42,448 nt of DNA, taken from positions 1 to 42,448 of IMG/VR virus record IMGVR_UViG_3300046467_003052. One strand, written 5' to 3'. The notes under the pieces were generated by a model. That model searched no databases, was not told the DNA's origin, and saw only the letters and a program-made list of their open reading frames with translations. Origin of the DNA: a virus. Taxonomy: Duplodnaviria > Caudoviricetes. Both the position numbers and the translations under genes were made by a program. Each line of letters opens with the position of its first letter. Positions within the stretch are counted from its first letter, which is position 1. Below are positions 5,640 to 40,940 of the stretch, piece by piece.

Positions 5640-8062
5640 TGGCATACAGTGATTTTAGAGATAGTTTAACTACATTTGATAATTATATTTCAGCCGAAAA
5701 ACACTCCGTAGGACTTGAAGGTACGTATGGTGACAACGCGGTAGTGCGAGCAGAAATAGGCGGAAATATGAAAACCATGATCTGTAATTTACTTGCAGGT
5801 AATGGTCTTAAACCGATGCCCCAAATACAAATTTGTTTAGATATGAATCTAAATGAATTATTGGGGCTTGCCGCCGGAAATGCAATTTTAATGGGTGCCT
5901 TGGCGTCTTGTCGAACTGCTCTTCAAGCATTTAATACCCACACAGGTTTATCTGCTACATTAATGAGACTTAATGCAGTTATAGGTGAAGCCGCGGCAAT
6001 AGCAAGTATGATTAATTTTTGTGCAAAACCAATTAATCCTAAACCTATCCCAAACTTATTAGAATCAGTAATGGGATCATTCTTGGGTAAGGGTGAAGGA
6101 ATTTTAAATAAATTAGGAAGAGTTATACCTGATAGAGCATCTGTTTGTTTTGATTTTTCCACTGGAAAACTTAATACAGATGCTTATATAGATGGCGGTT
6201 TATTACAAGAAATTCGAGATTCTTTAGAAGCAGGTATAGATATTAGTGCATTATGGGAAGATTGGGTTGCACAATTAATGTCTATTGCAGATGATTTTAA
6301 AAGAATTGTACAATTTGAAAATGACATAGCAAATGCGGCTATGGAACAAAACGGATTAGGCGGCGGGACCGGCGATAGCCTTAAACCTGTAACATTACCT
6401 GATAGTAATCCGGATGTACAAATATTTCAATCAGGATATAGCTCTGTGCAATTTGCCGCAGATGGTACAGAAGTAACACCTATAATAGTTACAAAAGTAA
6501 ACAATGCAACAAATACCACATCAACAAAAGTTACATTAGATGTTCTTATTAAGTTTACAGAAAAAATGGATCATGCGTCACTTACTTGTCGATTACCTGA
6601 TTCATCGCCTCCTAGTTCAGGATACTATGGAACTATAAGAGTATTAGGCGGACCAGATGTTAATGGTAGCAATGAACGAGTATGGAATGCATCGGGGGTG
6701 CAGGCAATAAACCCCAAACCGGACGGCGACGGAGATACAATATTTGGTGGAACAATTATCTTAGATACTTCAACTTATCAAAGTTCAACATTTACATTTG
6801 CAGTTGGTTCTACAAACCATGATACTACTCCTCTTAAACCTACTTCAATTTCTGGTAAAGAAATGCTTTCAGTAAGAGCAATTCAATTTACTTGTGCAGA
6901 AGCGGCGGCAGGAGTAGGAGCAACAAATTTTATTGGTACAGCATTACCAAACCAATCAGCAGAACAACAACAAAAAGCAATAGCAAATTATACAGATATG
7001 CCTACTGCAATTAATAATGCTCAAAATATATTAACCATATGGAATCAATTAGCAGGCTATCCTGTTCAACGAACAGATGGAACAATTTTAACTAATATAT
7101 TTGATGCATTCTTAGATGATGATTCAATTGCATTAGCGGCGTCAGGCGAATCATACATTGCCCCTGTTTATACTCGAGTTGAAGAAAAGGATTATTGTGG
7201 TAATGTAATTGGATACAAATATGAATTTACTCAAGGATCATTGCAAACACCAGATGCTATTGCCGCAGGAACAATAACAACATTGGCTTCGGAACGACCA
7301 AGAGTTTTAGAAATAATTCCTAGTTCAGGTGACATAACAGTAGTAATAGATTCTACGATTCAAGTACGATTTAACCAAGATATGGATTTTAGTACATTTA
7401 CTTTAGGTGATACTCGAACTACATGGGATGCAACCAAAACATATTCTATAGGTGACTTAATAGAATACATAGGAGCAGAATATTCGTCTGTTGTAGATAA
7501 TAACACCAATCAAATACCACCTACTAGTTCTGGGTATTGGTCAGCCGTTGTAGGTAATGAAGCAATATTAACGGCAGGTAGCGGTTCTGTTAAATTTAAA
7601 AATACAACTACCAATGAATTCGAAACAGGCGGAACGGTATCTTATAGTAATAAACTATTAACCTATATGCCGCCAAACAATTTAATAGCAAATAACGTAT
7701 ATCAATTAACTATTGTTGGACAAAATACATCTTCAATGTATCCCGGAATAGGCACATCAGTAGATAAAGTGTCACCTATAGAAAATATTTCAGGTATTAC
7801 TATGGCAAGTACATTTTCATCGTCTTTTACAATAAATGCCGCAGGTAATTCAACTGCTACATTAACAGTAACATCAGCGGCAGGTACAATTAAAACACCT
7901 AGTTATACAGTTGCGGAATTAAATGCTTTAGCGGCATTTTATACCACCAATGATCAAGGGTCGCAAGCATGGTGTTCAAATGAAACAGGCGGTGCTTGTA
8001 TGGTTGTTTTTAATGGCACCAATTGGGTAAGAATTGATAATAGTAACATAATTGCAGAATAA
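5639..8062 (+). CDS. Large virion/baseplate-associated protein with an Ig-like (Big_5/SbsA) domain and a CBM5/12-like module
   Basis: RPRVLEIIPSSG..VVIDSTIQVRFNQDMD (Ig-like); WDATKTYSIGDLIEY...W (CBM5/12-like); C-terminal PSYTVAEL...SNETGG...NGTNW tail-fibre-like motif; Thr/Ser/Gly-rich. Confidence 0.6.
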   Translation: MAYSDFRDSLTTFDNYISAEKHSVGLEGTYGDNAVVRAEIGGNMKTMICNLLAGNGLKPMPQIQICLDMNLNELLGLAAGNAILMGALASCRTALQAFNTHTGLSATLMRLNAVIGEAAAIASMINFCAKPINPKPIPNLLESVMGSFLGKGEGILNKLGRVIPDRASVCFDFSTGKLNTDAYIDGGLLQEIRDSLEAGIDISALWEDWVAQLMSIADDFKRIVQFENDIANAAMEQNGLGGGTGDSLKPVTLPDSNPDVQIFQSGYSSVQFAADGTEVTPIIVTKVNNATNTTSTKVTLDVLIKFTEKMDHASLTCRLPDSSPPSSGYYGTIRVLGGPDVNGSNERVWNASGVQAINPKPDGDGDTIFGGTIILDTSTYQSSTFTFAVGSTNHDTTPLKPTSISGKEMLSVRAIQFTCAEAAAGVGATNFIGTALPNQSAEQQQKAIANYTDMPTAINNAQNILTIWNQLAGYPVQRTDGTILTNIFDAFLDDDSIALAASGESYIAPVYTRVEEKDYCGNVIGYKYEFTQGSLQTPDAIAAGTITTLASERPRVLEIIPSSGDITVVIDSTIQVRFNQDMDFSTFTLGDTRTTWDATKTYSIGDLIEYIGAEYSSVVDNNTNQIPPTSSGYWSAVVGNEAILTAGSGSVKFKNTTTNEFETGGTVSYSNKLLTYMPPNNLIANNVYQLTIVGQNTSSMYPGIGTSVDKVSPIENISGITMASTFSSSFTINAAGNSTATLTVTSAAGTIKTPSYTVAELNALAAFYTTNDQGSQAWCSNETGGACMVVFNGTNWVRIDNSNIIAE

Positions 8063-8068
8063 TAGGTG

Positions 8069-8104
8069 TTGACACAAATTTTTTTATATGTTATAATATA
8101 AATA
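8069..8104 (+). promoter_or_regulatory. Consensus sigma70 promoter overlapped by a late box; drives the tmRNA
   Basis: TTGACA (8069-8074), 17 nt, TG-n-TATAAT (8092-8097); TATAAATA at 8097-8104. Confidence 0.85.
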
Positions 8105-8450
8105 TTAATGTTGTTAATGACTCTTTGTCGAAAGCGACTGGACATGGGTGCGATTCCCATCAGCTCCACCAAAGGAAGTTATGGAAAAATCATTTATGTG
8201 GATTGCAATAATTATAATCCTTATATTGATAATAACATACGGCGTTTTATATTTTGGATATGACTTTCGTTGATGGGGCTGAAATAGATTTCGACACCGT
8301 GGGAAGCAAAGACGAGACGACATTGAACTTAATCGCAAATAATAACGATTATACTTCCGCACAGATTGCCCTCGCGGCATAACCTGTAGCCGAGTTAGAG
8401 GATGGTCCTCTTGGGGGGAGTCACTTGGGAACAGAAGAATTCCCCCCACC
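8104..8450 (+). ncRNA. ssrA: Circularly permuted two-piece tmRNA: acceptor piece about 8104-8171, intervening segment 8172-8274, coding piece 8275 to about 8450
   Basis: T-arm ATGGG-TGCGATT-CCCAT and CAGCTCC-A-CCA (to 8171) lie upstream of GGGGCTG-AAATAGATTTCGAC (8275); the acceptor stem has G3:U70; tag frame 8335-8382 encodes ANNNDYTSAQIALAA*. Outer ends are approximate. Confidence 0.92.
8181..8273 (+). CDS. 30-aa single-TM peptide encoded in the tmRNA intervening segment (MEKSFMWIAIIIILILIITYGVLYFGYDFR)
   Basis: AAGGAAG RBS directly after the CCA, ATG 8181, TGA 8271-8273 ending 1 nt before the coding piece. Confidence 0.6.
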   Translation: MEKSFMWIAIIIILILIITYGVLYFGYDFR

Positions 8451-8479
8451 ACACACACAGACACACAAAGGAGAAAATT

Positions 8480-8710
8480 ATGTCTAGTAATCCATATGAA
8501 CTTAGGTTCAGACTACTTGAAATGGCCCAAGGCTATCTTCAAGATGAATACTCAAGAAAAGAAAACTTTGTTTATCAAGCATGGGATCATGCAAAAGAAC
8601 AAGGTGAAGCAACATCGAAGTTATGGAATGAACTTCAACCTGAATCTTATACCATTGATGATATTAAGACGAAGGCTACCGAACTCTATGAATTTGTAGA
8701 GAAGAAGTAA
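8480..8710 (+). CDS. Phage hypothetical protein (76 aa, MSSNPYELRFRLLEMAQ...)
   Basis: Strong AAGGAG RBS at ATG 8480, so the ORF-track start at 8402 is too far upstream; followed by a terminator. Confidence 0.75.
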   Translation: MSSNPYELRFRLLEMAQGYLQDEYSRKENFVYQAWDHAKEQGEATSKLWNELQPESYTIDDIKTKATELYEFVEKK

Positions 8711-8719
8711 ATAACCTAA

Positions 8720-8763
8720 AAGGGGAGTTATTTGCTAAAACAAAAAATTCCCCTTATTTTTTT
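8720..8763 (+). terminator. Rho-independent terminator
   Basis: AAGGGGAGTT...AATTCCCCTT stem followed by a T-run. Confidence 0.7.
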
Positions 8764-8883
8764 AAATTATAGTAATAGTTAACAACCAAAAAACACTGAA
8801 AAGTGGCCAAAACAACCAATTATACCAAAAAACCAGGTAAATATACTAGTGATTAGAAAATATCACAATAGGAGAATAAAACT

Positions 8884-9111
8884 ATGGATATTATTAAAAA
8901 TGTATCTGGCTGGATCAGGGGACTTACAGAAGTAGGTCTTTCGGTTATAGCATTAGGCATTGTCTTCCAAATTATTTTCGGAGCAAATGTAGTATTCCTT
9001 CCAATCGACATCCTAGGTAATGTAATCAGTTTCGTGAAAGCATTGGGTGGTGAAGGTCTTGTTGGCTTAATTGCATTGTGGATTCTTTGGGGAATCTACG
9101 ACAAGAAGTAA
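8884..9111 (+). CDS. Small membrane protein
   Basis: AGGAG RBS; two hydrophobic helices; GGEGLVGLIALWILW. Confidence 0.75.
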   Translation: MDIIKNVSGWIRGLTEVGLSVIALGIVFQIIFGANVVFLPIDILGNVISFVKALGGEGLVGLIALWILWGIYDKK

Positions 9112-9237
9112 CAAGGAATTCTAAACTAGTCCCTGTCTTAATTCACGACGATCCTAGGCAGGGCTAACCTTTAGCTTACTCGGAACCAAACAATGAATAA
9201 AAAAATCTAATATAAAAATATAAAGGAAACTTATAGT

Positions 9238-9846
9238 ATGAAAAAACTTATACTAATAACCTTGTCATATCTTTTTTTTATGAGTATGGCATTATCAAGC
9301 CAAGGCAGTTTAATAGAAGATGCTACAAAGCAAATACAGCAACATACAGAACCTAAATTTCGAAATACCTTTATGGTTTTTTCGAAAGAAGAAGTTGAAT
9401 GCCTTGCTTTAAATGTATACCATGAAGCTCGGAACGAAAGTTTATCAGGAAAAATTGCAGTAATTTTAGTCACAATGAATAGAGTTGCAGATGAAAGATT
9501 TCCTGGAAGTATTTGTGAGGTTGTCCGCCAAGGAAAACATTATTTTCATAAGACACTTAAGAAAAGATTTCCTGTTAAAGATATGTGTCAATTTAGTTGG
9601 TATTGTGATGGTTTAACCGATGACCCAAAGAATATCCGAGCATGGGCGTATTCTAATGCATTAATAGAATACTTTCTTAAACGATCTATGTCATTTATAG
9701 ATTTTACAGAAGGTGCTACCCATTATCATGCAGGATATATAGCTCTTCCTAGATGGGCAAAAGATAAAAATTTTATAAAAACAGTAACAATAGATACACA
9801 TTTATTTTATCGATGGAAGGCCAGTAAACTGCTTGCAACACGATAA
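9238..9846 (+). CDS. Cell wall hydrolase (SleB/Hydrolase_2 family) with signal peptide
   Basis: CLALNVYHEARNE, VTMNRV.D.RFP.SICEVV.Q, CQFSWYCDG, GATHYHA, HLFY. Confidence 0.92.
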   Translation: MKKLILITLSYLFFMSMALSSQGSLIEDATKQIQQHTEPKFRNTFMVFSKEEVECLALNVYHEARNESLSGKIAVILVTMNRVADERFPGSICEVVRQGKHYFHKTLKKRFPVKDMCQFSWYCDGLTDDPKNIRAWAYSNALIEYFLKRSMSFIDFTEGATHYHAGYIALPRWAKDKNFIKTVTIDTHLFYRWKASKLLATR

Positions 9847-12438: not shown

Positions 12439-14000
12439 TTTTTGGTTTGGTTGTGCTATTTACGGCATTATTAATATCAGGGGTAGCCGCTTGGTATTCT
12501 ATTGTTGGATTAATGGCTATTTTTAGTGGAGCCGCTCTTGCTATTGCAATTATGGGCGGAGTATTAGAAGTAGGTAAATTAGTTACAGCAAGTTGGCTTT
12601 ACAACTACTGGAAAGTAGTACCTAAGTTTCTTAAAATATATCTTACAAGTGCAGTTGTAGGTTTAATGTTTATAACTTCTATGGGTATTTTTGGCTTTTT
12701 GTCTAAAGCACATTTAGAACAAACAGCAATGTCCGAAGAACAAATAGCCCAAATATCTGTACACGAAGGAAAACTAGTTAGATCTAACGCAAAACTCCAG
12801 CGATGGAATGATGACATTGGGCGACTTAATAGAGGTGAAAATGTTAGAGTAGATCTTCTTATTAAAACTGAACAAGAACAATTAAACATTATATATGATA
12901 GAATTAAAGATGAAAAAGCACAACTAAAGGTAATAGCCGATGAACAAGTTGTAGTACAGGAAAATAAATTAACAGAATATGCAGAGCGTACTAAAACCGA
13001 TTTGGCGTTATTACAACAACGACCTGATGGAAAAATTGATGAGGAAACAGGCAAAACAGAAAAAGAAATAGCAATAGATAAAGTACGTAAAAGAGACAGA
13101 GGCGTTTCGTGGGTTGCACGAGATAAAATGAGAAAGATAAGTGAGCAATTACGTAAAGACTTTGATAAAATAGGTAACGATTATGCACCCCAAATTGGAA
13201 CTATTAACACACGAATACAAGAATTACGACAGCAAGCACAATTAAAAACAGAAGATCTTGATGCAAAAATTATACAACTTGAAGGGTTTATTGAAAAAGA
13301 ACAAGATATAGTTGATGACATTAGAGAAGATAAGTTAGTATTAGAACAAGCATATAGAGAACTTGAAGTAGAAGTGGGACCAGTAAAATATATTGCAGAA
13401 TTTATATACGGCGATGATGCAGTAGGTATGTTAGATAATGCAGTCAGAGGAGTAATTTTATTGTTAATTTTTGTGTTTGATCCACTTGCAGTATTATTAA
13501 TTATTGCAGGAAATATGACTATACGACAACATATACAGTTAAAACCTTTAAAAATGCGTAATGAGAAAGATGATGATGTTATAGTTGAACAAGAAGATGG
13601 AGCCGATTTGGTAATACCTGCAGATATTAAATCATCTGCACCTAAGCCAGTTGAGGATGTTACTGAACAAAAAGAGGAAAAACGTATTCCCAAAGGAACT
13701 GCTGTACGATCACACGAAGAAGGTATTGCTGGAATAATTCATTCAAAAACAGAACCAGAAGAATTAGACCAAAATATAAAAGAAATATTAGAACAAGCAA
13801 ATCCTGAAGTAAGAGAAGAAGTAGCAAAAGAATTGGAAAAAGATGTAAAAGAAGAATCAGTATCGGTATTGGTCGATAAAACAAATAAAACAATATTAGA
13901 ACCACTAGTAAATAAAGGAAGATCATTATTAAAATCATTAGCATCTGGCAAAAGCAAAAAAGTAAGTTGGATTGATACCCCACATGAACCAAAACACTAA
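12435..14000 (+). CDS. Membrane-anchored coiled-coil phage protein
   Basis: N-terminal TMs (AAWYSIVGL, LEVGKLV, ITSMGIFGFLSKAH), long coiled coil, EVGPVKYIA, IFVFDPLAVLL TM and an acidic tail. Confidence 0.7.
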   Translation: MIFGLVVLFTALLISGVAAWYSIVGLMAIFSGAALAIAIMGGVLEVGKLVTASWLYNYWKVVPKFLKIYLTSAVVGLMFITSMGIFGFLSKAHLEQTAMSEEQIAQISVHEGKLVRSNAKLQRWNDDIGRLNRGENVRVDLLIKTEQEQLNIIYDRIKDEKAQLKVIADEQVVVQENKLTEYAERTKTDLALLQQRPDGKIDEETGKTEKEIAIDKVRKRDRGVSWVARDKMRKISEQLRKDFDKIGNDYAPQIGTINTRIQELRQQAQLKTEDLDAKIIQLEGFIEKEQDIVDDIREDKLVLEQAYRELEVEVGPVKYIAEFIYGDDAVGMLDNAVRGVILLLIFVFDPLAVLLIIAGNMTIRQHIQLKPLKMRNEKDDDVIVEQEDGADLVIPADIKSSAPKPVEDVTEQKEEKRIPKGTAVRSHEEGIAGIIHSKTEPEELDQNIKEILEQANPEVREEVAKELEKDVKEESVSVLVDKTNKTILEPLVNKGRSLLKSLASGKSKKVSWIDTPHEPKH

Positions 14001-15216
14001 ACATTTTATTTGTAGTTTTTGTTATAAAACTAGAGATGAAGTTAAAAAGTTAATTCAAGGCCCCGATAATGATATCTTTATTTGTGATGAATGCATTAAA
14101 CTTTCTTTTAACATTATTCAAGATGAAGAAAGCGAAATTAACGAACATTATGTTTACACCCCAAAAGCAATTTATGACCATTTAACTGAATTTGTTATAG
14201 GTCAAGACGAAGCAAAAAAAGTCCTAGCGGTGGCAGTATATAATCATTATAAGCGAATTAATCATGTAGCAACAGACATAGAATTAGATAAATCTAATGT
14301 ACTGTTATTGGGTCCTTCTGGATCAGGCAAAACATTATTGGCGAGTACAATAGCAAAAATATTAGATGTTCCTTTTGCAATAGCAGATGCAACGACAGTA
14401 ACAGAGGCCGGTTATGTGGGTGATGATGTTGAAAACTTAGTAACCAAATTATTGTCTGCCGCAGAATATGATATAAATCGAGCAGAAAAAGGTATTGTTT
14501 ACATTGACGAAATAGATAAAAAAGGACGAAAATCTGAATCTGCAAGTGTTACTAGAGATGTATCGGGCGAGGGTGTACAGCAAGCATTATTAAAAATGAT
14601 AGAAGGAGCAGAAGTCAGGATACCCCCCGGAGGAGGTAGAAAGCATCCCCAATCAGAAATGGTGGAGATAAACACAAAAGATATATTGTTTATATTGGGC
14701 GGCGCCTTTATAGATTTAGAGAAACATATCAAGAAACGGTTAAACAAAACAAAGTCTATAGGATTTGGAGCAATAATAGATGAAAGACACGATGATACCA
14801 ATTATTTTAATTTAGTAGAACCAGACGATTTAGTTGAATACGGATTAATACCAGAACTTGTTGGTAGAATACCTATACGTGTTGGTCTCAAGGAACTTAC
14901 ACACAATGAGCTTGTAAAAGTATTAACAGAACCCAAAAATAGCATTATAAAACAATTTCAACGAATATTTGAAATGGATAATGTTAAATTAGAATTCACA
15001 GACGGAGCATGTGAAGAAATTGTAAAAATTTGTAGTGATACAAAAGTAGGCGCAAGAGGATTGCGTTCAGTTATAGAAAACACATTATTAAATGTGCAAT
15101 TTAATTTACCAACATATGAAAAGAAAGGCATAGAAAAGGTAGTAATAAATGAAGACACAATCAAGAAACGACAGAAACCGTTCCTCGTTTACGGGAAAAA
15201 ACAACAGAAAAAATAA
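13984..15216 (+). CDS. clpX: ATP-dependent Clp protease ATPase subunit ClpX
   Basis: Zn finger CSFC/CDEC, Walker A GPSGSGKT, GYVG pore loop, Walker B YIDEIDK, RDVSGEGVQQ, RKH, IGF loop, GARGLR. Confidence 0.97.
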   Translation: MNQNTKHFICSFCYKTRDEVKKLIQGPDNDIFICDECIKLSFNIIQDEESEINEHYVYTPKAIYDHLTEFVIGQDEAKKVLAVAVYNHYKRINHVATDIELDKSNVLLLGPSGSGKTLLASTIAKILDVPFAIADATTVTEAGYVGDDVENLVTKLLSAAEYDINRAEKGIVYIDEIDKKGRKSESASVTRDVSGEGVQQALLKMIEGAEVRIPPGGGRKHPQSEMVEINTKDILFILGGAFIDLEKHIKKRLNKTKSIGFGAIIDERHDDTNYFNLVEPDDLVEYGLIPELVGRIPIRVGLKELTHNELVKVLTEPKNSIIKQFQRIFEMDNVKLEFTDGACEEIVKICSDTKVGARGLRSVIENTLLNVQFNLPTYEKKGIEKVVINEDTIKKRQKPFLVYGKKQQKK

Positions 15217-15694
15217 TTATATAAGCCACCCTATGTTAAGGCTTATAGATGAAAATGGCGAACAACTAGGTGTAATGGAAACTAGAAGAGCCATTAGCAT
15301 AGCTCGTGAACGAGAATTAGACGTTGTTGTTATATCTGAAAGTGTGTCCCCTCCGGTGGCCAAAATTGTAGATTTAAATAAATATCATTACAAAGAACAA
15401 CAAAGGAAGAAAGCTCAGGCAAAAAATGCCCGCGCAAGTCGAACCGAATTAAAAGAAATGCAATTTAGACCAACAATTGGTGACCATGATTTTGTGGTTA
15501 AAGCAAACAAAATTAAAAAGTTTTTAGATAAAGGTGATCAGGTAAAAATTGTAATTCGGTTTAAAGGGCGAGAACGACACATATATAAAGAGTCTGGATT
15601 AGAATTATTTGATAAGTTATCAAAAAGTTTAGAAACAGAGTATGTGACTGAGCCTAAATTTGTTGGTTCGAGCATCATAGCAATATTAAAATGA
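15149..15694 (+). CDS. infC: Translation initiation factor IF-3
   Basis: RLIDENGEQLGVM, PPVAKIVD, KEMQFRPTIGDHD, GDQVK.VIRFKGRE; start uncertain because it overlaps the clpX end by 68 nt. Confidence 0.93.
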   Translation: MKTQSRNDRNRSSFTGKNNRKNNYISHPMLRLIDENGEQLGVMETRRAISIARERELDVVVISESVSPPVAKIVDLNKYHYKEQQRKKAQAKNARASRTELKEMQFRPTIGDHDFVVKANKIKKFLDKGDQVKIVIRFKGRERHIYKESGLELFDKLSKSLETEYVTEPKFVGSSIIAILK

Positions 15695-15903
15695 TAACAA
15701 TAGAAGTACGAAACAATAATGCCGATAAAGCAATTAAAATGTTAAAGAAAAAAGTAAACGCAGAAGGTACTTTAAAAGACTGTCGTGATAAACAGTTTTA
15801 TGAAAAACCGACAGATAAAAGACGTAGAAAGAAAGCTCAAGCTATTCGTCGTATTGAGCGAAATATAGAAAAATTATATGACGAAAAAGAAAAAAATTAT
15901 TGA
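15691..15903 (+). CDS. rpsU: 30S ribosomal protein bS21
   Basis: IEVRNNNADKAIKMLKKKV..EG...FYEKPTDKRRRKKAQAIRR. Confidence 0.93.
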   Translation: MITIEVRNNNADKAIKMLKKKVNAEGTLKDCRDKQFYEKPTDKRRRKKAQAIRRIERNIEKLYDEKEKNY

Positions 15904-15939
15904 CATTTATATTATAACCTGTTATAATATATATAAATA
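15900..15939 (+). promoter_or_regulatory. Consensus sigma70 promoter plus late box upstream of hsp20
   Basis: TTGACA (15900-15905), 17 nt, TG-n-TATAAT (15923-15928); TATAAATA 15932-15939. Confidence 0.85.
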
Positions 15940-16008
15940 ATAATGAAGAGAAAGTTAATGCCACATAAGGGTTAACTTCCCTCTGTCTTGCTTATAAAGG
16001 AGAAAATT

Positions 16009-16476
16009 ATGACTAGCAGACATCTCACAACCGCCAATCTAGGCGATTTCATTACATCGTTAACACCATTTACTGTAGGAATGGACAGAATGTTTAGGGA
16101 CTTAGAGCAGTTCTCTAATTCATATGTTGATTCATCTACCGGGTATCCACCCTATAACATCGAGCAAATTGATGAAGGTAAATGGGTAATTTCAATGGCC
16201 ATTGCTGGCTTTGGAGAAGACGATATTACAGTTTCACAAAAAGAACGCAATCTTACAGTTAAAGGTAAAATTGAAAGCAAAGACGACGAGAAGACATGTG
16301 TAGATCATTTTGTCCATCGTGGTATTGCTAATCGTTCTTTTGAAAGAACTTTTCGTTTAGGTGAACATGTACTCGTTAAAGATGCAATTCTTAAAAACGG
16401 CATGTTAACTATAGATTTGGAACAGGAAATTCCAGAGGCAGAAAAGCCTAGGGAAATTCCTATCACGGTTAATTAA
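16009..16476 (+). CDS. Small heat-shock protein Hsp20 (IbpA-like)
   Basis: GYPPYNI, MAIAGF, HRGIANRSFERTF.L, A.LKNGMLTI.L...IPE..KP; AAGGAG RBS before ATG 16009. Confidence 0.95.
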   Translation: MTSRHLTTANLGDFITSLTPFTVGMDRMFRDLEQFSNSYVDSSTGYPPYNIEQIDEGKWVISMAIAGFGEDDITVSQKERNLTVKGKIESKDDEKTCVDHFVHRGIANRSFERTFRLGEHVLVKDAILKNGMLTIDLEQEIPEAEKPREIPITVN

Positions 16477-16486
16477 ATAACATTAT

Positions 16487-16517
16487 GCGGCGCATGATGG
16501 TGCGCCGCCTCTATTTT
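16487..16517 (+). terminator. GC-rich hairpin, probable terminator after hsp20
   Basis: GCGGCGCA-TGATGG-TGCGCCGC followed by CTCTATTTT. Confidence 0.6.
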
Positions 16518-16543
16518 AACTAAATACAGAAAAGGGTTTGCTA

Positions 16544-16852
16544 ATGCCTGAAATTGAAACTATAGTCGAAAAAGATACTAAAACAATTCAAAATGTAAAA
16601 GAACCAGAAAAATATCAAGTTATTTTTGTTAATGATAACTTTACACCAATGGAATTTGTTGTAGAAGCATTAATGGCCATTTTTCATCATTCTAAAGCCG
16701 TCGCGGAAAAAATAATGGTTGATATTCATGAAAAAGGTAAGGGAACTGCCGGGGTATTTTTTTATGAAATTGCAGAACAAAAAGCATTAGAAACCACACA
16801 TCTAGCAAGATCAAAAGGCCATCCATTAAACGTAGAAATTGAGGAATCGTAA
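16544..16852 (+). CDS. clpS: Clp protease adaptor ClpS
   Basis: YQVIFVNDNFTPMEFVV, IHEKGKG.AG, YEIAEQK, GHPL. Confidence 0.95.
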   Translation: MPEIETIVEKDTKTIQNVKEPEKYQVIFVNDNFTPMEFVVEALMAIFHHSKAVAEKIMVDIHEKGKGTAGVFFYEIAEQKALETTHLARSKGHPLNVEIEES

Positions 16853-24032: not shown

Positions 24033-24413
24033 ATGGCATACAGCGAAAAAGTTATAGATCATTATACAAATCCACAAAATGTTGGAAGTTTTGATAAAAA
24101 CGATCCAACTATTGGAACGGGACTTGTAGGAGCACCAGAATGTGGTGATGTGATGAAACTGCAAATTAAAGTGGGCGATAATAATAAAATTATAGACGCT
24201 AAATTCAAAACATTCGGTTGTGGTTCTGCAATTGCTTCTTCAAGTTTGGCCACAGAATGGATTAAAGGTAAAACCATAGAAGAAGCAGATACTATTAAAA
24301 ATGTAGAAATTGTTGAAGAGTTATCTTTACCTCCTGTAAAGATTCATTGTTCGGTATTAGCCGAAGATGCAATTAAATCTGCAATACAAGATTATAAAAA
24401 TAAACAATTATAA
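24033..24413 (+). CDS. iscU: Fe-S cluster scaffold IscU
   Basis: MAYSEKVIDHY.NP.NVG, APECGDVM, FGCGSAIASSS, LPPVKIHCS. Confidence 0.97.
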   Translation: MAYSEKVIDHYTNPQNVGSFDKNDPTIGTGLVGAPECGDVMKLQIKVGDNNKIIDAKFKTFGCGSAIASSSLATEWIKGKTIEEADTIKNVEIVEELSLPPVKIHCSVLAEDAIKSAIQDYKNKQL

Positions 24414-24423
24414 AAAAGGTAAT

Positions 24424-24732
24424 ATGTCATTTTTTAAAAGATTAACAAACTGGCTTGCCGGTACACCCACACCTGTTGCTCATAATGAAGCACAAGCAAT
24501 GACAGGTACAATGCCTAACTACGAACCTATAGAGGTTCCTGCTAAAGGCGAATCAAAACCTGCTAAGTCTAAGAAAACAAGCACAAAACATACAAAGGCT
24601 TCGTTAAAGAAAATGACGAAAAGCCAATTAGAAGCATTAGGTAGAAAAGAATTCAACATCGAGTTGGATAAACGCAAAACAAAAGCGAAATTAGTAACTG
24701 AACTTTTGAACACCGTCAAGAAAGTGAGGTGA
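24424..24732 (+). CDS. Hypothetical basic protein with a Rho-N/HEH-like C-terminus
   Basis: LKKMTKSQLEALGR...IELDKRKTKAKLV; start at ATG 24424 (AAGGT RBS). Confidence 0.6.
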   Translation: MSFFKRLTNWLAGTPTPVAHNEAQAMTGTMPNYEPIEVPAKGESKPAKSKKTSTKHTKASLKKMTKSQLEALGRKEFNIELDKRKTKAKLVTELLNTVKKVR

Positions 24733-24738
24733 GTATCA

Positions 24739-25092
24739 ATGCCACAAAAACATTGGGATAAAGGTAGACAAGGTAAACATTTAGGTCACGATGATATAGA
24801 AGGTATGAATATGGGCGAATTATTAGAACACCTCATACAGTGGTATAATGTAACAGATATTAAACCTACCATAGATATTACATCATTCAATAGGCCACCT
24901 TGGACTTTACCCGGCGATCCGTATATTCATAATGCATTAGAATGTTGGAATGATGCAATTAACGACGACGACGGAGATAATAGACACTTTGATGACAGAG
25001 GACATTTTCATCTTTCAATAATGATAAAACGAAAAGATGTTGTCCAACATTTAACTGCGGCGGCCGACGGAGATTTCACTCCAACATGGTAA
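24739..25092 (+). CDS. Hypothetical protein
   Basis: GAGGTGA RBS; His/Asp-rich. Confidence 0.6.
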   Translation: MPQKHWDKGRQGKHLGHDDIEGMNMGELLEHLIQWYNVTDIKPTIDITSFNRPPWTLPGDPYIHNALECWNDAINDDDGDNRHFDDRGHFHLSIMIKRKDVVQHLTAAADGDFTPTW

Positions 25093-25460
25093 CATTAACA
25101 GAACAAGCCGCGACGGTATTATTGGGTATCATGAAAGATCAAACAGTTGACGTCAACACAAAAGTGAGAGTTGGTGTTAAAGGCGGCGGTTGTTCGGGTT
25201 TTACTTATACGGTAGATTTTGAAACCAAAAAAAGCAGATTTGATTTAGAATTTGCGTCGTTTGGTCTTAATGTTTTGGTAGATAAAAAAAGCCACCTATA
25301 CATTAACGGAACAGTAATAGATTGGTCAAATGATTTAAACGATCGTGGGCTTAAATTCAACAATCCTTCAGCCAAAGGTTCATGTGGTTGTAGGACATCA
25401 TTTATGTACGAACATATGGAGACAAACAATGGAAATACCCCAAGCTGGATGCGAGCTTAA
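25086..25460 (+). CDS. iscA: A-type Fe-S carrier (IscA/HesB family)
   Basis: RVGVKGGGCSGFTY, VLVDKKS..Y..G..ID, FNNP.A.GSCGC. Confidence 0.93.
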   Translation: MVTLTEQAATVLLGIMKDQTVDVNTKVRVGVKGGGCSGFTYTVDFETKKSRFDLEFASFGLNVLVDKKSHLYINGTVIDWSNDLNDRGLKFNNPSAKGSCGCRTSFMYEHMETNNGNTPSWMRA

Positions 25461-25845
25461 AATAACAGAAAAAGCCGCTGTAGAATTTACAAATATGTGT
25501 TTAGATGAAGATAGAAATCTAGATAAGGCATATCTTCGAGTAGGTGCAAATTCTGGTGGTTGTTCAGGATGGAAATATAGTTTAGATTATGAAGATAAAG
25601 TTGAACCATCAGACTTGATTTTTGAGCAATATGATGTTAAACTAGTAGTAGACGAATACCTCCTTAATGATATAATCGGAGATGTGGAAGTAGATTATAA
25701 AGTGGGTAATTTGGTTGAGCAAGGTTTTATATTTAAAAGACTTAAATATGAACATGTTTGTGGATGCGGAGAAAGTTTCACACCAATAAAAGATATTCCT
25801 GCAGACGGTAAACAGCAGTTAGGCTGGAAAGATCATTTCAAATAA
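25429..25845 (+). CDS. Second A-type Fe-S carrier (IscA/ErpA/HesB family)
   Basis: LKITEKA, LRVG..SGGCSGWKY, CGCGESF; start at ATG 25429 (GGAG RBS). Confidence 0.9.
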   Translation: MEIPQAGCELKITEKAAVEFTNMCLDEDRNLDKAYLRVGANSGGCSGWKYSLDYEDKVEPSDLIFEQYDVKLVVDEYLLNDIIGDVEVDYKVGNLVEQGFIFKRLKYEHVCGCGESFTPIKDIPADGKQQLGWKDHFK

Positions 25846-38622: not shown

Positions 38623-38698
38623 GCTGACGTAGCTCAGTTGGTAGAGCACCTCATTTGTAATGAGGGTGTCGGGGGTTCAAATCCCTCCGTCAGCTCCA
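38623..38698 (+). tRNA. tRNA-Thr(UGU)
   Basis: GCTGACG/CGTCAGC acceptor, CCTCA-TT-TGT-AA-TGAGG anticodon arm, TTCAAAT T-loop, encoded CCA. Confidence 0.95.
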
Positions 38699-38720
38699 CG
38701 GATCCATTAGAGAAATTATT

Positions 38721-39389
38721 ATGAGATTAAGTTCTATAGTATATGAAAATTTTTATCCCGACCCTTTTGCAGTTAGAAATAGGGTATTAAAACAAGAGTT
38801 TTATCCGCCAGATTATTTAGAAAATATTATTAGAGTAGAAGGAATGGAAAGCGATGAGGTGTACGAAATATCCAAAATAGGAAATTTTTGTGGAGAAAGA
38901 ACAATACGTGCTACAAAGATATTACCTGAAGAGGATGAACATACGAAAAATTTTGTAAAAAATGTTTGTAAATTTAATGATGATACAAAATTAGAAGTAG
39001 AAACATACTTTACAATGCAATTAGGAGAACATGATTTAGTTAACAAAAGTATTCACCAAGATACAGATCCTATTATGGCTATTGTTGTTTATTTAACACC
39101 CAATCCGGAACCAGCTAGTGGTACTATTTTTTATGCACATAAAAAAACAAATTGGAATGGTGTAAACAATGATAGAGTACCAGATAGAGCATTTGCAGAC
39201 ATTTATCCTGATAAAAGAGCAGATCAAAATAAATCTAATTTTCAAGTAGAATCTATAGTAGGAAATGTTTTTAATAGAATAGTATTATATGATAGTAAAT
39301 TATTACATGCTCCAGGTACTTGTTTTGGTAAAACTAAAGAGGATTGTCGGTTAACTCAAACATCTTTTATATTTAAGGTGGCACAATGA
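38721..39389 (+). CDS. 2OG-Fe(II) oxygenase-like protein (DUF6445-like)
   Basis: ENFYPDP..VR, G.F.G.RT, IHQD, VVYLTP.P...SGT.FY.HK, NVFNRIVLYDS..LH, RLTQ. Confidence 0.8.
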   Translation: MRLSSIVYENFYPDPFAVRNRVLKQEFYPPDYLENIIRVEGMESDEVYEISKIGNFCGERTIRATKILPEEDEHTKNFVKNVCKFNDDTKLEVETYFTMQLGEHDLVNKSIHQDTDPIMAIVVYLTPNPEPASGTIFYAHKKTNWNGVNNDRVPDRAFADIYPDKRADQNKSNFQVESIVGNVFNRIVLYDSKLLHAPGTCFGKTKEDCRLTQTSFIFKVAQ

Positions 39390-40002
39390 ATTATAGATTA
39401 ATGATATATGATAATTTCTTTGAAAAGCCTGATGATGTTCGAACCAAAGCACTAAAACAAGATTTTTATTATTGTGATGAATTAGATAATGTTGCAGTAG
39501 CAGATAACGAAGACGACGAAATATTAGAAATTTCTAAAATAGGAGGACAATTTCCCGGACAGCGATCTTTGTTATGTGAAACAATTTTACCTGATATATA
39601 TAAAGAATTTTATAAAAAAATATCATCTTTTATGCCCAATGATACTGTTATAGTAAATGCATTATTTCAAAAACAAACAAAAGATGATTTTAGAAATATA
39701 CATCAAGACGAGGAACCATTTTTGTCGGGTTTAATTTATTTAGATAATAAACCAGTAGTAAATACCGGTACTTGTTTTTACAAGCATAAAGAAACAGGAT
39801 GGGACGGAACTACCGAAATGCCCAAAGATTCTAATACAGAAGAATGGGAAATAAAAGAATTTCAAATGGCTAATGATAATTTTGAAAAAGCTAGTATTGT
39901 TGAAAATAAATTTAATAGAATGATTATGTACGATGCAAATATGTTGCATAGTGCTGAGGGTGCCGAAGAGGAAAGACTAACTTTGGCATTTTTTGTTTAC
40001 CC

Positions 40003-40012
<10 letters not shown>
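39386..40012 (+). CDS. 2OG-Fe(II) oxygenase-like protein (DUF6445-like), tandem paralogue
   Basis: DNFFEKPDDVR, FPGQRS, IHQD, GLIYL, GTCFYKHK, NKFNRMIMYD..LHSA, RLT; the stop codon lies inside tRNA-Pro. Confidence 0.8.
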
Positions 40013-40079
<67 letters not shown>

Positions 40080-40202
40080 ATATTTTCTATATCATCCCTT
40101 ATTACAACATGATATAGAAAAGATGAAACTGCAGGTGTGTTTCCCCCTAAGCAAACGAGCTGGGTTTTTTGGCACCAAAGCAGGGAATAGCGTTCCCTGA
40201 AC

Positions 40203-40276
40203 TAGAATGGACTAGGCTTACTACTTGCAAGATAGAGGAGGTCGCTCCGAGGCATGTGCTAGTAAGGTCCATTCTA
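40203..40276 (+). ncRNA. Candidate small structured RNA between tRNA-Pro and tRNA-Asp
   Basis: Perfect 10-bp TAGAATGGAC/GTCCATTCTA, 7-bp CTTACTA/TAGTAAG and an apical GGAG-GTCG-CTCC hairpin. Confidence 0.45.
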
Positions 40277-40280
40277 TTTT

Positions 40281-40357
40281 GGTCCCATCGTCTAGGCGGC
40301 CTAGGACACCGGCCTGTCACGCCGGCAACATGGGTTCGAATCCCATTGGGACCGCCA
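40281..40357 (+). tRNA. tRNA-Asp(GUC)
   Basis: GGTCCCA/TGGGACC acceptor, CCGGC-CT-GTC-AC-GCCGG, TTCGAAT, G73, CCA. Confidence 0.93.
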
Positions 40358-40549
40358 GTTTATAATATAGAGAGTTTGAAAATGAAACACACACAGACAC
40401 ACAATTTTGCTCTTACCCAAGAAGAATTAAAAATTATCATTCAGGCGATAGAATGTTTTATTGACCCTAAAAAACCTCGATGGGCAAAAGATGAAGCGAC
40501 GGATAATGATATTATTTTGCTTTTAAATAAAGTCAAATTGGGACCGCCA
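40345..40549 (+). repeat. 13-bp direct repeat of the tRNA-Asp 3' end (ATTGGGACCGCCA at 40345-40357 and 40537-40549)
   Basis: Exact duplication flanking a 179-nt AT-rich insert. Confidence 0.8.
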
Positions 40550-40570
40550 CACAGGGGTTTAGCTCAGTAG
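40382..40570 (+). CDS. Small hypothetical protein (62 aa, MKHTQTHNFALTQEELK...)
   Basis: ATG 40382 after AGAGAG; reads through the repeat and stops at a TAG inside tRNA-Val. Confidence 0.5.
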   Translation: MKHTQTHNFALTQEELKIIIQAIECFIDPKKPRWAKDEATDNDIILLLNKVKLGPPHRGLAQ

Positions 40571-40628
40571 GGAGAGCGCCTGTTTTACACGCAGATTGTC
40601 ACTGGTTCGATTCCAGTAACCCCTACCA
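40553..40628 (+). tRNA. tRNA-Val(UAC)
   Basis: AGGGGTT/AACCCCT acceptor, TT-TAC-AC loop, TTCGATT, CCA. Confidence 0.92.
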
Positions 40629-40629
40629 T

Positions 40630-40704
40630 TCCTCGGTAGCTCAGTGGTAGAGCAGATGACTGTTAATCATCGGGTCGCTGGTTCGAATCCGGCCCGGGGA
40701 GCCA
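40630..40704 (+). tRNA. tRNA-Asn(GUU)
   Basis: TCCTCGG/CCGGGGA, GATGA-CT-GTT-AA-TCATC, G73, CCA. Confidence 0.95.
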
Positions 40705-40706
40705 AT

Positions 40707-40783
40707 GTTGATAGTAGCTCAGTCGGTAGAGCATTTGGTTGTGGTCCAAAAGGTCGAGGGTTCGAACCCCTTCTATCAACCCA
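40707..40783 (+). tRNA. tRNA-His(GUG)
   Basis: Encoded G-1 opposite C73, TTTGG-TT-GTG-GT-CCAAA, CCA. Confidence 0.95.
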
Positions 40784-40785
40784 GT

Positions 40786-40862
40786 AGGGGAGTAGCTCAG
40801 TTGGTTAGAGCAATGTTCTTATAAGGCATAGGTCCTGGGTTCAAGTCCCAGCTCCCCTACCA
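40786..40862 (+). tRNA. tRNA-Ile(UAU)
   Basis: AGGGGAG/CTCCCCT, ATGTT-CT-TAT-AA-GGCAT, TTCAAGT, A73, CCA. Confidence 0.9.
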
Positions 40863-40863
40863 T

Positions 40864-40940
40864 AGGCGTGTAGTTTAGCTGGTTAGAACGCCACTCTGAT
40901 ACGGTGGAGATCGTTGGTTCAAATCCAACCACGCCTACCA
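40864..40940 (+). tRNA. tRNA-Ile(GAU)
   Basis: AGGCGTG/CACGCCT, CCACT-CT-GAT-AC-GGTGG, TTCAAAT, CCA. Confidence 0.93.

What the first reader, a model, noticed from the sequence alone, without database searches (positions are those of the whole stretch)
8172..8274. Protein-coding gene hidden in the tmRNA intervening segment
Seen: the 103-nt segment that must be excised is filled almost exactly by an RBS (AAGGAAG right after the CCA) and a 30-codon ORF, MEKSFMWIAIIIILILIITYGVLYFGYDFR*, whose TGA ends 1 nt before the coding-piece 5' G. It has one TM helix, and 5 of its 8 Ile codons are ATA. I know of no described coding function for permuted-tmRNA spacers. Inference: maturation releases a mini-mRNA for a small membrane protein (toxin-, exclusion- or regulator-like), or translation of this AUA-rich ORF couples tmRNA processing to the phage tRNA-Ile(UAU). 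Caveat: AT-rich random ORFs are often hydrophobic.
Basis: partly seen in the sequence, partly recalled or inferred. Interest (0 to 1): 0.85.

Follow-up and report, generated by a model that had tools for sequence, protein, structure and literature searches.

The report
Membrane-peptide gene inside phage tmRNA spacer
The spacer predicted to be cut out of this marine phage's two-piece ribosome-rescue RNA (tmRNA) holds a conserved 30-codon gene under protein-level selection, predicted to make a membrane peptide and likely translated only before the precursor folds shut; other phages fill the same spacer with many unrelated small genes.

Summary
Observation confirmed. A permuted tmRNA (RF04321) has a 103-nt spacer (8172-8274) filled by AAGGAAG plus a 30-codon hydrophobic ORF. 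The ORF is under selection: dN/dS 0.24 over 61 unique relatives, none with a stop, and all 80 homologues found protein-first lie in a tmRNA spacer (2 truncated). The spacer is a swappable slot. Near-identical tmRNAs carry this peptide, unrelated basic proteins, or nothing; 55 of 65 long spacers in other phages hold ORFs (4.4 expected; bacteria at chance). Five cargo families sit free-standing just upstream of ssrA in other phages. Cultured phage Melnitz has an unannotated spacer ORF. Best model (55%): translation from the nascent precursor competes with folding and processing; an excised mini-mRNA is the main rival (25%). The AUA/tRNA-Ile idea is unsupported (5 of 8 versus 52% window-wide). 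Translation and peptide function are untested. Not found in ten literature searches; closest precedent is 23S rRNA IVS ORFs. This scan noted the same arrangement earlier on other DNA.

The parts
8069..8097 (+). Sigma-70-type promoter, TTGACA-17-TATAAT with extended -10 TG; predicted to drive the tmRNA precursor and hence the spacer ORF
   Evidence: 12 of 12 consensus matches; function inferred
8109..8171 (+). Acceptor piece of the permuted tmRNA (T-arm, acceptor 3' strand AGCUCC, discriminator A, encoded CCA at 8169-8171); 5' end approximate
   Evidence: RF04321 alignment
8172..8274 (+). Intervening segment (spacer), 103 nt
8172..8183 (+). 5' arm of the spacer-closing stem; contains the SD-like AAGGAAG (8172-8178) and the AUG (8181-8183)
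   Evidence: MFE and centroid folds; covariation over 27 distinct arm pairs, 10.5 of 12 paired against 8.2 after swapping arms, 0 of 5000 swaps as high
8181..8273 (+). 30-codon ORF with stop, predicted single-pass membrane peptide (hydrophobic core about codons 5-25)
   Evidence: dN/dS 0.295 on 27 sequences and 0.24 on 61; 2 of 1281 residues at positions 5-25 charged or strongly polar
8259..8274 (+). 3' arm of the closing stem (codons Y27-R30) and the UGAU that pairs back to ACCA; dual-use sequence, RNA stem and end of the ORF
   Evidence: codons 27-30 almost free of synonymous change (TAT 72, GAC 69/GAT 2, TTT 71, CGT 71 of 73)
8275..8446 (+). Coding piece of the tmRNA; G1 at 8275 is the expected RNase P site; 3' end approximate (end of RF01849 match)
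   Evidence: the cleavage site is inferred from known tRNA-like processing
8335..8382 (+). Tag reading frame ANNNDYTSAQIALAA*
   Evidence: sequence and alignment to the tag region of RF04321

Best explanation
The spacer of this phage's two-piece tmRNA gene carries a small protein gene under purifying selection, predicted to encode a single-pass membrane peptide, and it is likely translated from the nascent or still-unfolded precursor before the spacer's ends pair and processing enzymes cut it out. Shown: the ORF, its selection, the stem that buries RBS and AUG, and the exchange of spacer contents among near-identical tmRNAs. Inferred: (1) the consensus promoter makes an abundant early transcript; (2) ribosomes load in the interval before the 3' arm, about 80 nt downstream, is made, and a ribosome at the last codons keeps the stem open; (3) once ribosomes clear, the stem and acceptor helix close, RNase P cuts at 8275 and the spacer is trimmed from the CCA, so each transcript yields a few peptides and then one tmRNA; (4) the loop is a tolerated slot behind a strong promoter, filled by capture of neighbouring small genes; (5) the peptide most likely acts by binding a host or phage membrane protein through the face L16-Y20-L23 (accessory takeover or exclusion role), not as a pore-forming toxin. 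Probability that the ORF is a real gene is about 0.93; the confidence below is for the whole route.
For: Selection: omega 0.295 against omega fixed at 1, lnL -743.8 vs -761.5, while the stop-free +2 frame gives 1.38; omega 0.24, lnL -1129.9 vs -1173.5, 0 of 61 with a stop; only codons 2-26, outside the stem, were used. L16, Y20 and L23 are invariant in 61 of 61 while their codons vary. Context: 78 of 80 protein-first hits have both tmRNA flanks and 2 are cut by contig ends. Stem. Opening cost is higher in the full precursor than in the nascent prefix for 48 of 49 clade spacers and 48 of 51 others. Coding spacers have weaker stems (median -9.8 and -9.0 kcal/mol) than non-coding phage (-12.1) or bacterial ones (-12.2). 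Slot: identical 180-nt tmRNA flanks with a 103-nt coding spacer (L020) or a 25-nt empty one (five contigs); 25 changes of spacer class on the tmRNA tree, minimum 7, shuffled mean 30.5; 55 of 65 other-phage spacers of 133-209 nt hold ORFs against 4.4 expected; five cargo families occur free-standing directly upstream of ssrA, one 59% identical to Melnitz QZI94817.1.
Against: For this allele the excised spacer opens more easily (3.5) than the nascent prefix (5.6), and a local hairpin with the acceptor strand leaves the AUG mostly paired even in the prefix (P unpaired 0.03-0.06). SD-to-AUG spacing is short and many alleles lack a core SD (36 of 51 have one). The weaker-stem result is confounded by lower GC and by relatedness. 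The nascent-versus-full difference follows from any closing stem. Prefix folding is equilibrium, not kinetic. Mosaic tmRNA/spacer combinations could partly be assembly chimeras. No family, partner or structure was found for the peptide, so step 5 rests on analogy.
Confidence: 0.55

Rival explanations
1. Maturation releases the spacer as a free mini-mRNA with a 9-nt leader, which is then translated; peptide output follows tmRNA processing.
For: Excision lowers the opening cost against the full precursor (family median 6.9 vs 12.0; this allele 3.5 vs 8.9 kcal/mol). The ORF, with RBS and stop, fits wholly within the spacer in 51 of 51 clade cases.
Against: The excised RNA still folds its RBS and AUG into the stem. 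It needs a clean endonucleolytic cut right after CCA; 3' trimming would remove the stop codon first. In Coxiella the excised 23S IVS loses its SD and is rapidly degraded (PMC4990558, passages). 19 of 55 cargo ORFs in other phages, and the Melnitz one, have no stop before G1.
Confidence: 0.25
2. Type I toxin-like or self-sensing circuit: the message is kept shut by 5'-3' pairing and opened by 3' trimming, which also removes the stop, so the product is tagged by tmRNA and accumulates only when rescue fails (ArfA-like logic).
For: Size and hydrophobicity resemble type I toxins; SD sequestration, including a transient nascent hairpin, parallels aapA3 (PMC6733600, abstract; hairpin). The anti-RBS arm and the stop coincide here. 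17 long spacers of other phages read through G1 in one frame.
Against: The stem is present in non-coding phage and bacterial spacers too, so it is a processing element. No antisense promoter faces the ORF. Empty spacers and an internal deletion allele exist (L023/L106). Cargoes include soluble proteins. Read-through tails vary in length (12-96 nt) and differ from stop-bearing cargoes by the first base of one stem codon. No hit to ArfA or toxin families.
Confidence: 0.1
3. Translation of AUA codons in the ORF ties tmRNA processing to the phage tRNA-Ile(UAU), like a leader-peptide sensor.
For: Ile at codons 10 and 12 is ATA in 56 of 57 and 68 of 68 alleles; the window encodes tRNA-Ile(UAU).
Against: ATA share equals the genome's (5 of 8 here; 122 of 213 in the membrane-peptide spacers; 52% window-wide). 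Other synonymous sites are equally invariant (GCA 50 of 50, AAA 60 of 60, ATT 47 of 49). L028 has 0 of 5 ATA. Residue-level selection on the peptide is not needed for a codon sensor.
Confidence: 0.05
4. The ORF is a chance or decaying frame in an AT-rich structural loop and is not translated.
For: The RBS and AUG are paired; the Coxiella IVS ORF is apparently not expressed; short spacers and a deletion allele show that it is dispensable.
Against: omega 0.24-0.35 with large likelihood gains; no stop in 61 alleles while frame +1 is closed in 27 of 27; non-coding spacers of similar length show ORFs only at chance (12 of 66 vs 14.4).
Confidence: 0.05

Closest known systems
Circularly permuted two-piece tmRNA genes (Rfam RF04321, RF01849); phage examples Melnitz, HTVC008M, Mosig, phiCbK (PMC9004378)
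   Same: Gene order acceptor piece, spacer, coding piece; tag frame; marine phage setting.
   Different: The spacer holds a selected protein gene. The 2025 database paper (PMC11915505, main text read) reports a tRNA-Ala gene and a repetitive element in spacers but no protein gene. HTVC008M and Mosig spacers are short; phiCbK and Bajun have no SD-led ORF; Melnitz has one that its GenBank record does not annotate.
23S rRNA intervening sequences carrying S23p ORFs (Leptospira, Coxiella, Xanthomonas, Brucella; PMC4990558)
   Same: Sense-strand ORF in the loop of a stem-closed segment excised from a stable-RNA precursor that then works in pieces; SD lies in the closing stem.
   Different: Host RNA is tmRNA; expected nucleases are tRNA-end enzymes, not RNase III (untested); cargo is a 30-aa membrane peptide and one of many unrelated families rather than one four-helix family; selection is purifying here, whereas the Coxiella ORF is reported as decaying.
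Type I toxin mRNAs (aapA3 of H. pylori, PMC6733600; hok, recalled)
   Same: Short hydrophobic peptide; SD held shut by RNA pairing.
   Different: No antisense antitoxin evident; the pairing is a general tmRNA-processing stem; no sequence match; toxicity untested.
arfA nonstop-mRNA feedback on trans-translation (recalled)
   Same: Processing could turn the message into a nonstop substrate of tmRNA, directly so for read-through cargoes of other phages.
   Different: This ORF has its own stop inside the spacer in 73 of 73 alleles; no cargo matched ArfA in Pfam or NCBIfam.

Membership tests
Permuted two-piece tmRNA gene | Match to RF04321 above the gathering score, with acceptor piece before coding piece | tested here: met
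   87.2 bits vs 47
Permuted two-piece tmRNA gene | 7-bp acceptor stem with G-U pair and CCA; open tag frame ending in ALAA-like residues | tested here: met
   compensatory acceptor variants among relatives
Permuted two-piece tmRNA gene | Precursor is cut into two pieces and tags proteins in vivo | not testable with these tools
   RNA runs are contigs only
Protein-coding gene (spacer ORF) | Purifying selection and an intact frame across homologues | tested here: met
   omega 0.295 and 0.24; 0 of 61 with stops
Protein-coding gene (spacer ORF) | Translation shown | not testable with these tools
   no Ribo-seq or proteomics available
23S rRNA IVS / S23p element | Lies in 23S rRNA and encodes an S23p four-helix protein | tested here: not met
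   lies in tmRNA; no such Pfam hit
23S rRNA IVS / S23p element | ORF in the loop of a terminal-repeat stem | tested here: met
   (works-like only)
23S rRNA IVS / S23p element | Excision by RNase III | not testable with these tools
   needs an in vitro assay
Type I toxin-antitoxin module | Peptide under 60 aa with one TM helix | tested here: met
   30 aa, KD19 2.88
Type I toxin-antitoxin module | Cognate antisense RNA | tested here: inconclusive
   no minus-strand consensus promoter that would transcribe across the ORF in 7900-9300; a consensus scan cannot exclude one
Type I toxin-antitoxin module | Similarity to a known toxin family | tested here: not met
   no Pfam hit above cut-off, no PHROG, NCBIfam or PADLOC hit; atlas best 0.83 to YoaK, lead only
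Type I toxin-antitoxin module | Toxic when expressed | not testable with these tools
   bench test
ArfA-type nonstop feedback | Processed message lacks a stop codon | tested here: not met
   TGA inside the spacer in 73 of 73 alleles; lost only if the 3' end is trimmed

The most novel reading that the evidence does not exclude
Phage pre-tmRNAs are dual-use transcripts with a switch: ribosome traffic on the spacer gene gates folding and maturation of the rescue RNA, and processing then silences the gene or turns it into a nonstop substrate of the same tmRNA. Phages would use this slot as a plug-in expression module that doses or times dozens of unrelated small proteins according to the state of ribosome rescue.
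Probability: 0.2. Interest if true: 0.88.

Novelty: new variant of a known kind. Interest (0 to 1): 0.7.

Why it matters
The spacer of two-piece tmRNA genes is treated as discarded RNA, and annotation hides genes there: the cultured phage Melnitz has such an ORF unannotated under its tmRNA feature. If translated, one transcript serves first as mRNA and then as precursor of a ribosome-rescue RNA, a layout with precedent only in rRNA intervening sequences. It exposes a hidden set of phage small proteins (31 sequence clusters in this sample alone) and gives a natural system for asking how translation and stable-RNA processing compete on one molecule. Melnitz on OM43 strain H5P1 makes it testable.

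Tried and rejected
AUA enrichment: rejected. Family assignment of the peptide: Pfam only sub-threshold membrane-segment hits; PHROGs, NCBIfam, PADLOC none; ESM atlas best 0.83 with low recognition score; profile search of 1.84 billion representatives gave 7 proteins, all short look-alikes. ArfA identity of the basic clade cargo: no hit despite 531 homologues. Cultured relatives of this tmRNA: none in 50,697 phage records; L236 cargo none. Expression: 6 RNA runs hold part of the stretch; all 6 were laid over two calls. One contig in X17 covers most of a relative's ORF and crosses G1 with no mismatch, but DNA carry-over was not controlled and contigs give no ends or levels, so nothing is concluded. 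Melnitz spacer ORF vs L256 cargo: no alignment. Whole-spacer folding is not better than shuffles (z -0.59); the support for the stem is covariation. The short peptides printed for 25-42 nt spacers are not used. PMC516066 was not held; searches on pre-tmRNA processing gave no paper, so RNase P cleavage and 3' trimming rest on PMC11915505's statement that tRNA-processing enzymes cut the precursor and on recalled knowledge. No structure or complex prediction was run, as no partner is proposed.

Full report
OBSERVATION. The window is the whole of a 42,448-base virus record; runs that hold the locus are seawater, marine or vent metagenomes. Rfam places a permuted tmRNA at 8109-8382 (RF04321, 87.2 bits) and the alphaproteobacterial model at 8065-8446, behind a 12-of-12 sigma-70 consensus promoter at 8069-8097. 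The ATA count is right but ordinary: 52% of Ile codons in 51 window genes are ATA, P=0.41.

IS THE ORF A GENE? A scan of viral contigs anchored on the coding-piece 5' end plus the last four spacer bases returned 97 loci. With the window, 95 of 98 matches were permuted genes, giving 57 unique spacers; the other three lacked an acceptor piece in the DNA held. Six spacers are short (25-42 nt) and empty. All 51 long ones (96-205 nt) are filled by an ATG ORF starting 7-15 nt after CCA, against 6.2 expected from shuffles that keep the terminal TGAT: 43 membrane peptides of 27-30 aa, 7 basic proteins of one family, 1 of another. On codons 2-26, outside the stem, omega is 0.295 for 27 unique 103-nt alleles (lnL -743.8 vs -761.5 at omega 1; MG model 0.353), and the stop-free +2 frame gives 1.38. 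A protein-first scan of metagenomes confirmed 90 relatives and kept 80: 78 lie between CCA and a coding piece (65 by strict pattern, 13 read by eye) and 2 are cut by contig ends. With these, 61 unique alleles give omega 0.24 (lnL -1129.9 vs -1173.5), none has a stop, and L16, Y20 and L23 are invariant while their codons vary. No library names the peptide.

Spacer bases +1 to +12 pair with -5 to -16, continuing the acceptor helix across ACCA/UGAU. Over 27 distinct arm pairs 10.5 of 12 positions pair, against 8.2 when arms are swapped between loci (0 of 5000), with changes on both sides at +6, +7 and +8; related sequences inflate this somewhat. The stem is also in non-coding phage spacers and bacterial ones, so it is a processing element. 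Here its 5' arm is the RBS and AUG and its 3' arm is Y-D-F-R, whose codons barely vary: the conserved C-terminus is RNA constraint. Opening the start region costs a median 4.3 kcal/mol in the nascent prefix, 12.0 in the full precursor and 6.9 in the excised spacer (49 of the 51 clade spacers had enough flank); for this allele 5.6, 8.9 and 3.5. A local hairpin with the acceptor strand pairs the AUG even in the prefix. Coding spacers have weaker stems than non-coding ones (-9.8 and -9.0 vs -12.1), confounded by GC and kinship.

A SWAPPABLE SLOT. On a tree of the tmRNA without its spacer (59 rows) spacer class changes 25 times, minimum 7, shuffled mean 30.5; identical flanks hold a coding or an empty spacer. 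Chimeric assembly may add to this. Bacterial spacers of 91-147 nt found with an alpha-type pattern gave 6 of 42 (9.3), none with an SD. 103 cargo proteins fall into 31 single-linkage clusters (from the 81-107 nt class only 5 of 12 were included); these are sequences, not independent events. Five families also occur as the free-standing gene directly upstream of ssrA in other phages, which points to capture of neighbouring genes. 19 of the 55 have no stop before G1. Of five cultured phages checked, Melnitz has an unannotated SD-led spacer ORF; HTVC008M, Mosig, phiCbK and Bajun do not.

MECHANISM. Shown: ORF, selection, stem, exchange. Inferred: ribosomes load before the 3' arm is made and hold the stem open while they finish; the RNA then folds and is cut, giving a limited burst of peptide per tmRNA (0.55). 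The excised mini-mRNA is the main rival (0.25) and is favoured by this allele's own energies. A toxin-like or nonstop feedback circuit (0.10), an AUA sensor (0.05) and a non-coding frame (0.05) follow. The peptide is dispensable in sister lineages and has one invariant helical face, so an accessory membrane modulator is my best guess; this is analogy only. Metatranscriptome contigs were inconclusive.

LITERATURE. PMC9004378: passages and part 1 of 2 of supplement 2; 'intervening' does not occur in its main text. PMC4990558: passages. PMC6733600: abstract and outline. PMC3978253, PMC10117765, PMC4131195: passages; the S. meliloti tmRNA sORF is the tag frame, not the spacer. Ten searches (seen as listings) showed no report of a spacer-encoded protein; Keiler 2000, Sharkady 2004 and Mao 2009 were not read, and subscription journals are not covered. 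hok and arfA regulation are recalled. This scan's notes record the same arrangement in other genomes (32 findings hold the search words, 8 shown; 4 look-alike windows); my reading was stated before seeing them.

VERDICT. A real nested gene, and one case of a wide phage habit; a new variant of the ORF-bearing intervening sequence known from 23S rRNA. Interest 0.70.

Noticed in passing
L421:1078-1261 (MZ577097 about 46077-46260): Cultured phage Melnitz: 142-nt tmRNA spacer with GGAG and an ATG ORF that crosses G1 in frame and stops 42 nt inside the coding piece; not annotated in the record.
   Followed up: partly
L421:781-981: The gene directly upstream of Melnitz ssrA (QZI94817.1) is 59% identical to the spacer cargo of L355.
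   Followed up: yes
L018, L019, L034, L040, L058, L076, L104 spacers: Basic 50-59 aa cargo ending in a W-D-x-D-L-W-D motif (shifted frame in L040); 531 homologues, no family name.
   Followed up: partly
L157, L190, L195, L229 and L232, L239, L242, L271, L285, L316 spacers: Two groups of four-cysteine mini-proteins, both reading through G1; the first has weak sub-threshold hits to Bfd.
   Followed up: partly
L023, L106 spacers: 42-nt spacer that is an internal deletion of the membrane-peptide ORF with both stem arms kept.
   Followed up: yes
L095:636-806 (minus strand): The basic cargo gene, 3' arm and coding piece follow another gene with no acceptor piece in the 600 nt upstream; natural rearrangement or assembly chimera.
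   Followed up: partly
L409:301-451: Permuted tmRNA with a phage-like coding spacer on an 8-kb contig of an Opitutia MAG; possibly a misbinned phage contig.
   Followed up: no
window 8480-8710 and 8884-9111: A 76-aa gene follows the tmRNA here and in several relatives, then a 75-aa hydrophobic gene; neither has a family hit.
   Followed up: partly
window 13984-16852 and 24033-25845: By sequence look the phage carries host-like ClpX, IF3, Hsp20, ClpS and Fe-S assembly genes; names recalled, not scanned. ClpX is of note beside a tagging RNA.
   Followed up: no
window 38623-40940: Eight tRNA genes including both tRNA-Ile(UAU) and tRNA-Ile(GAU) in tandem.
   Followed up: no
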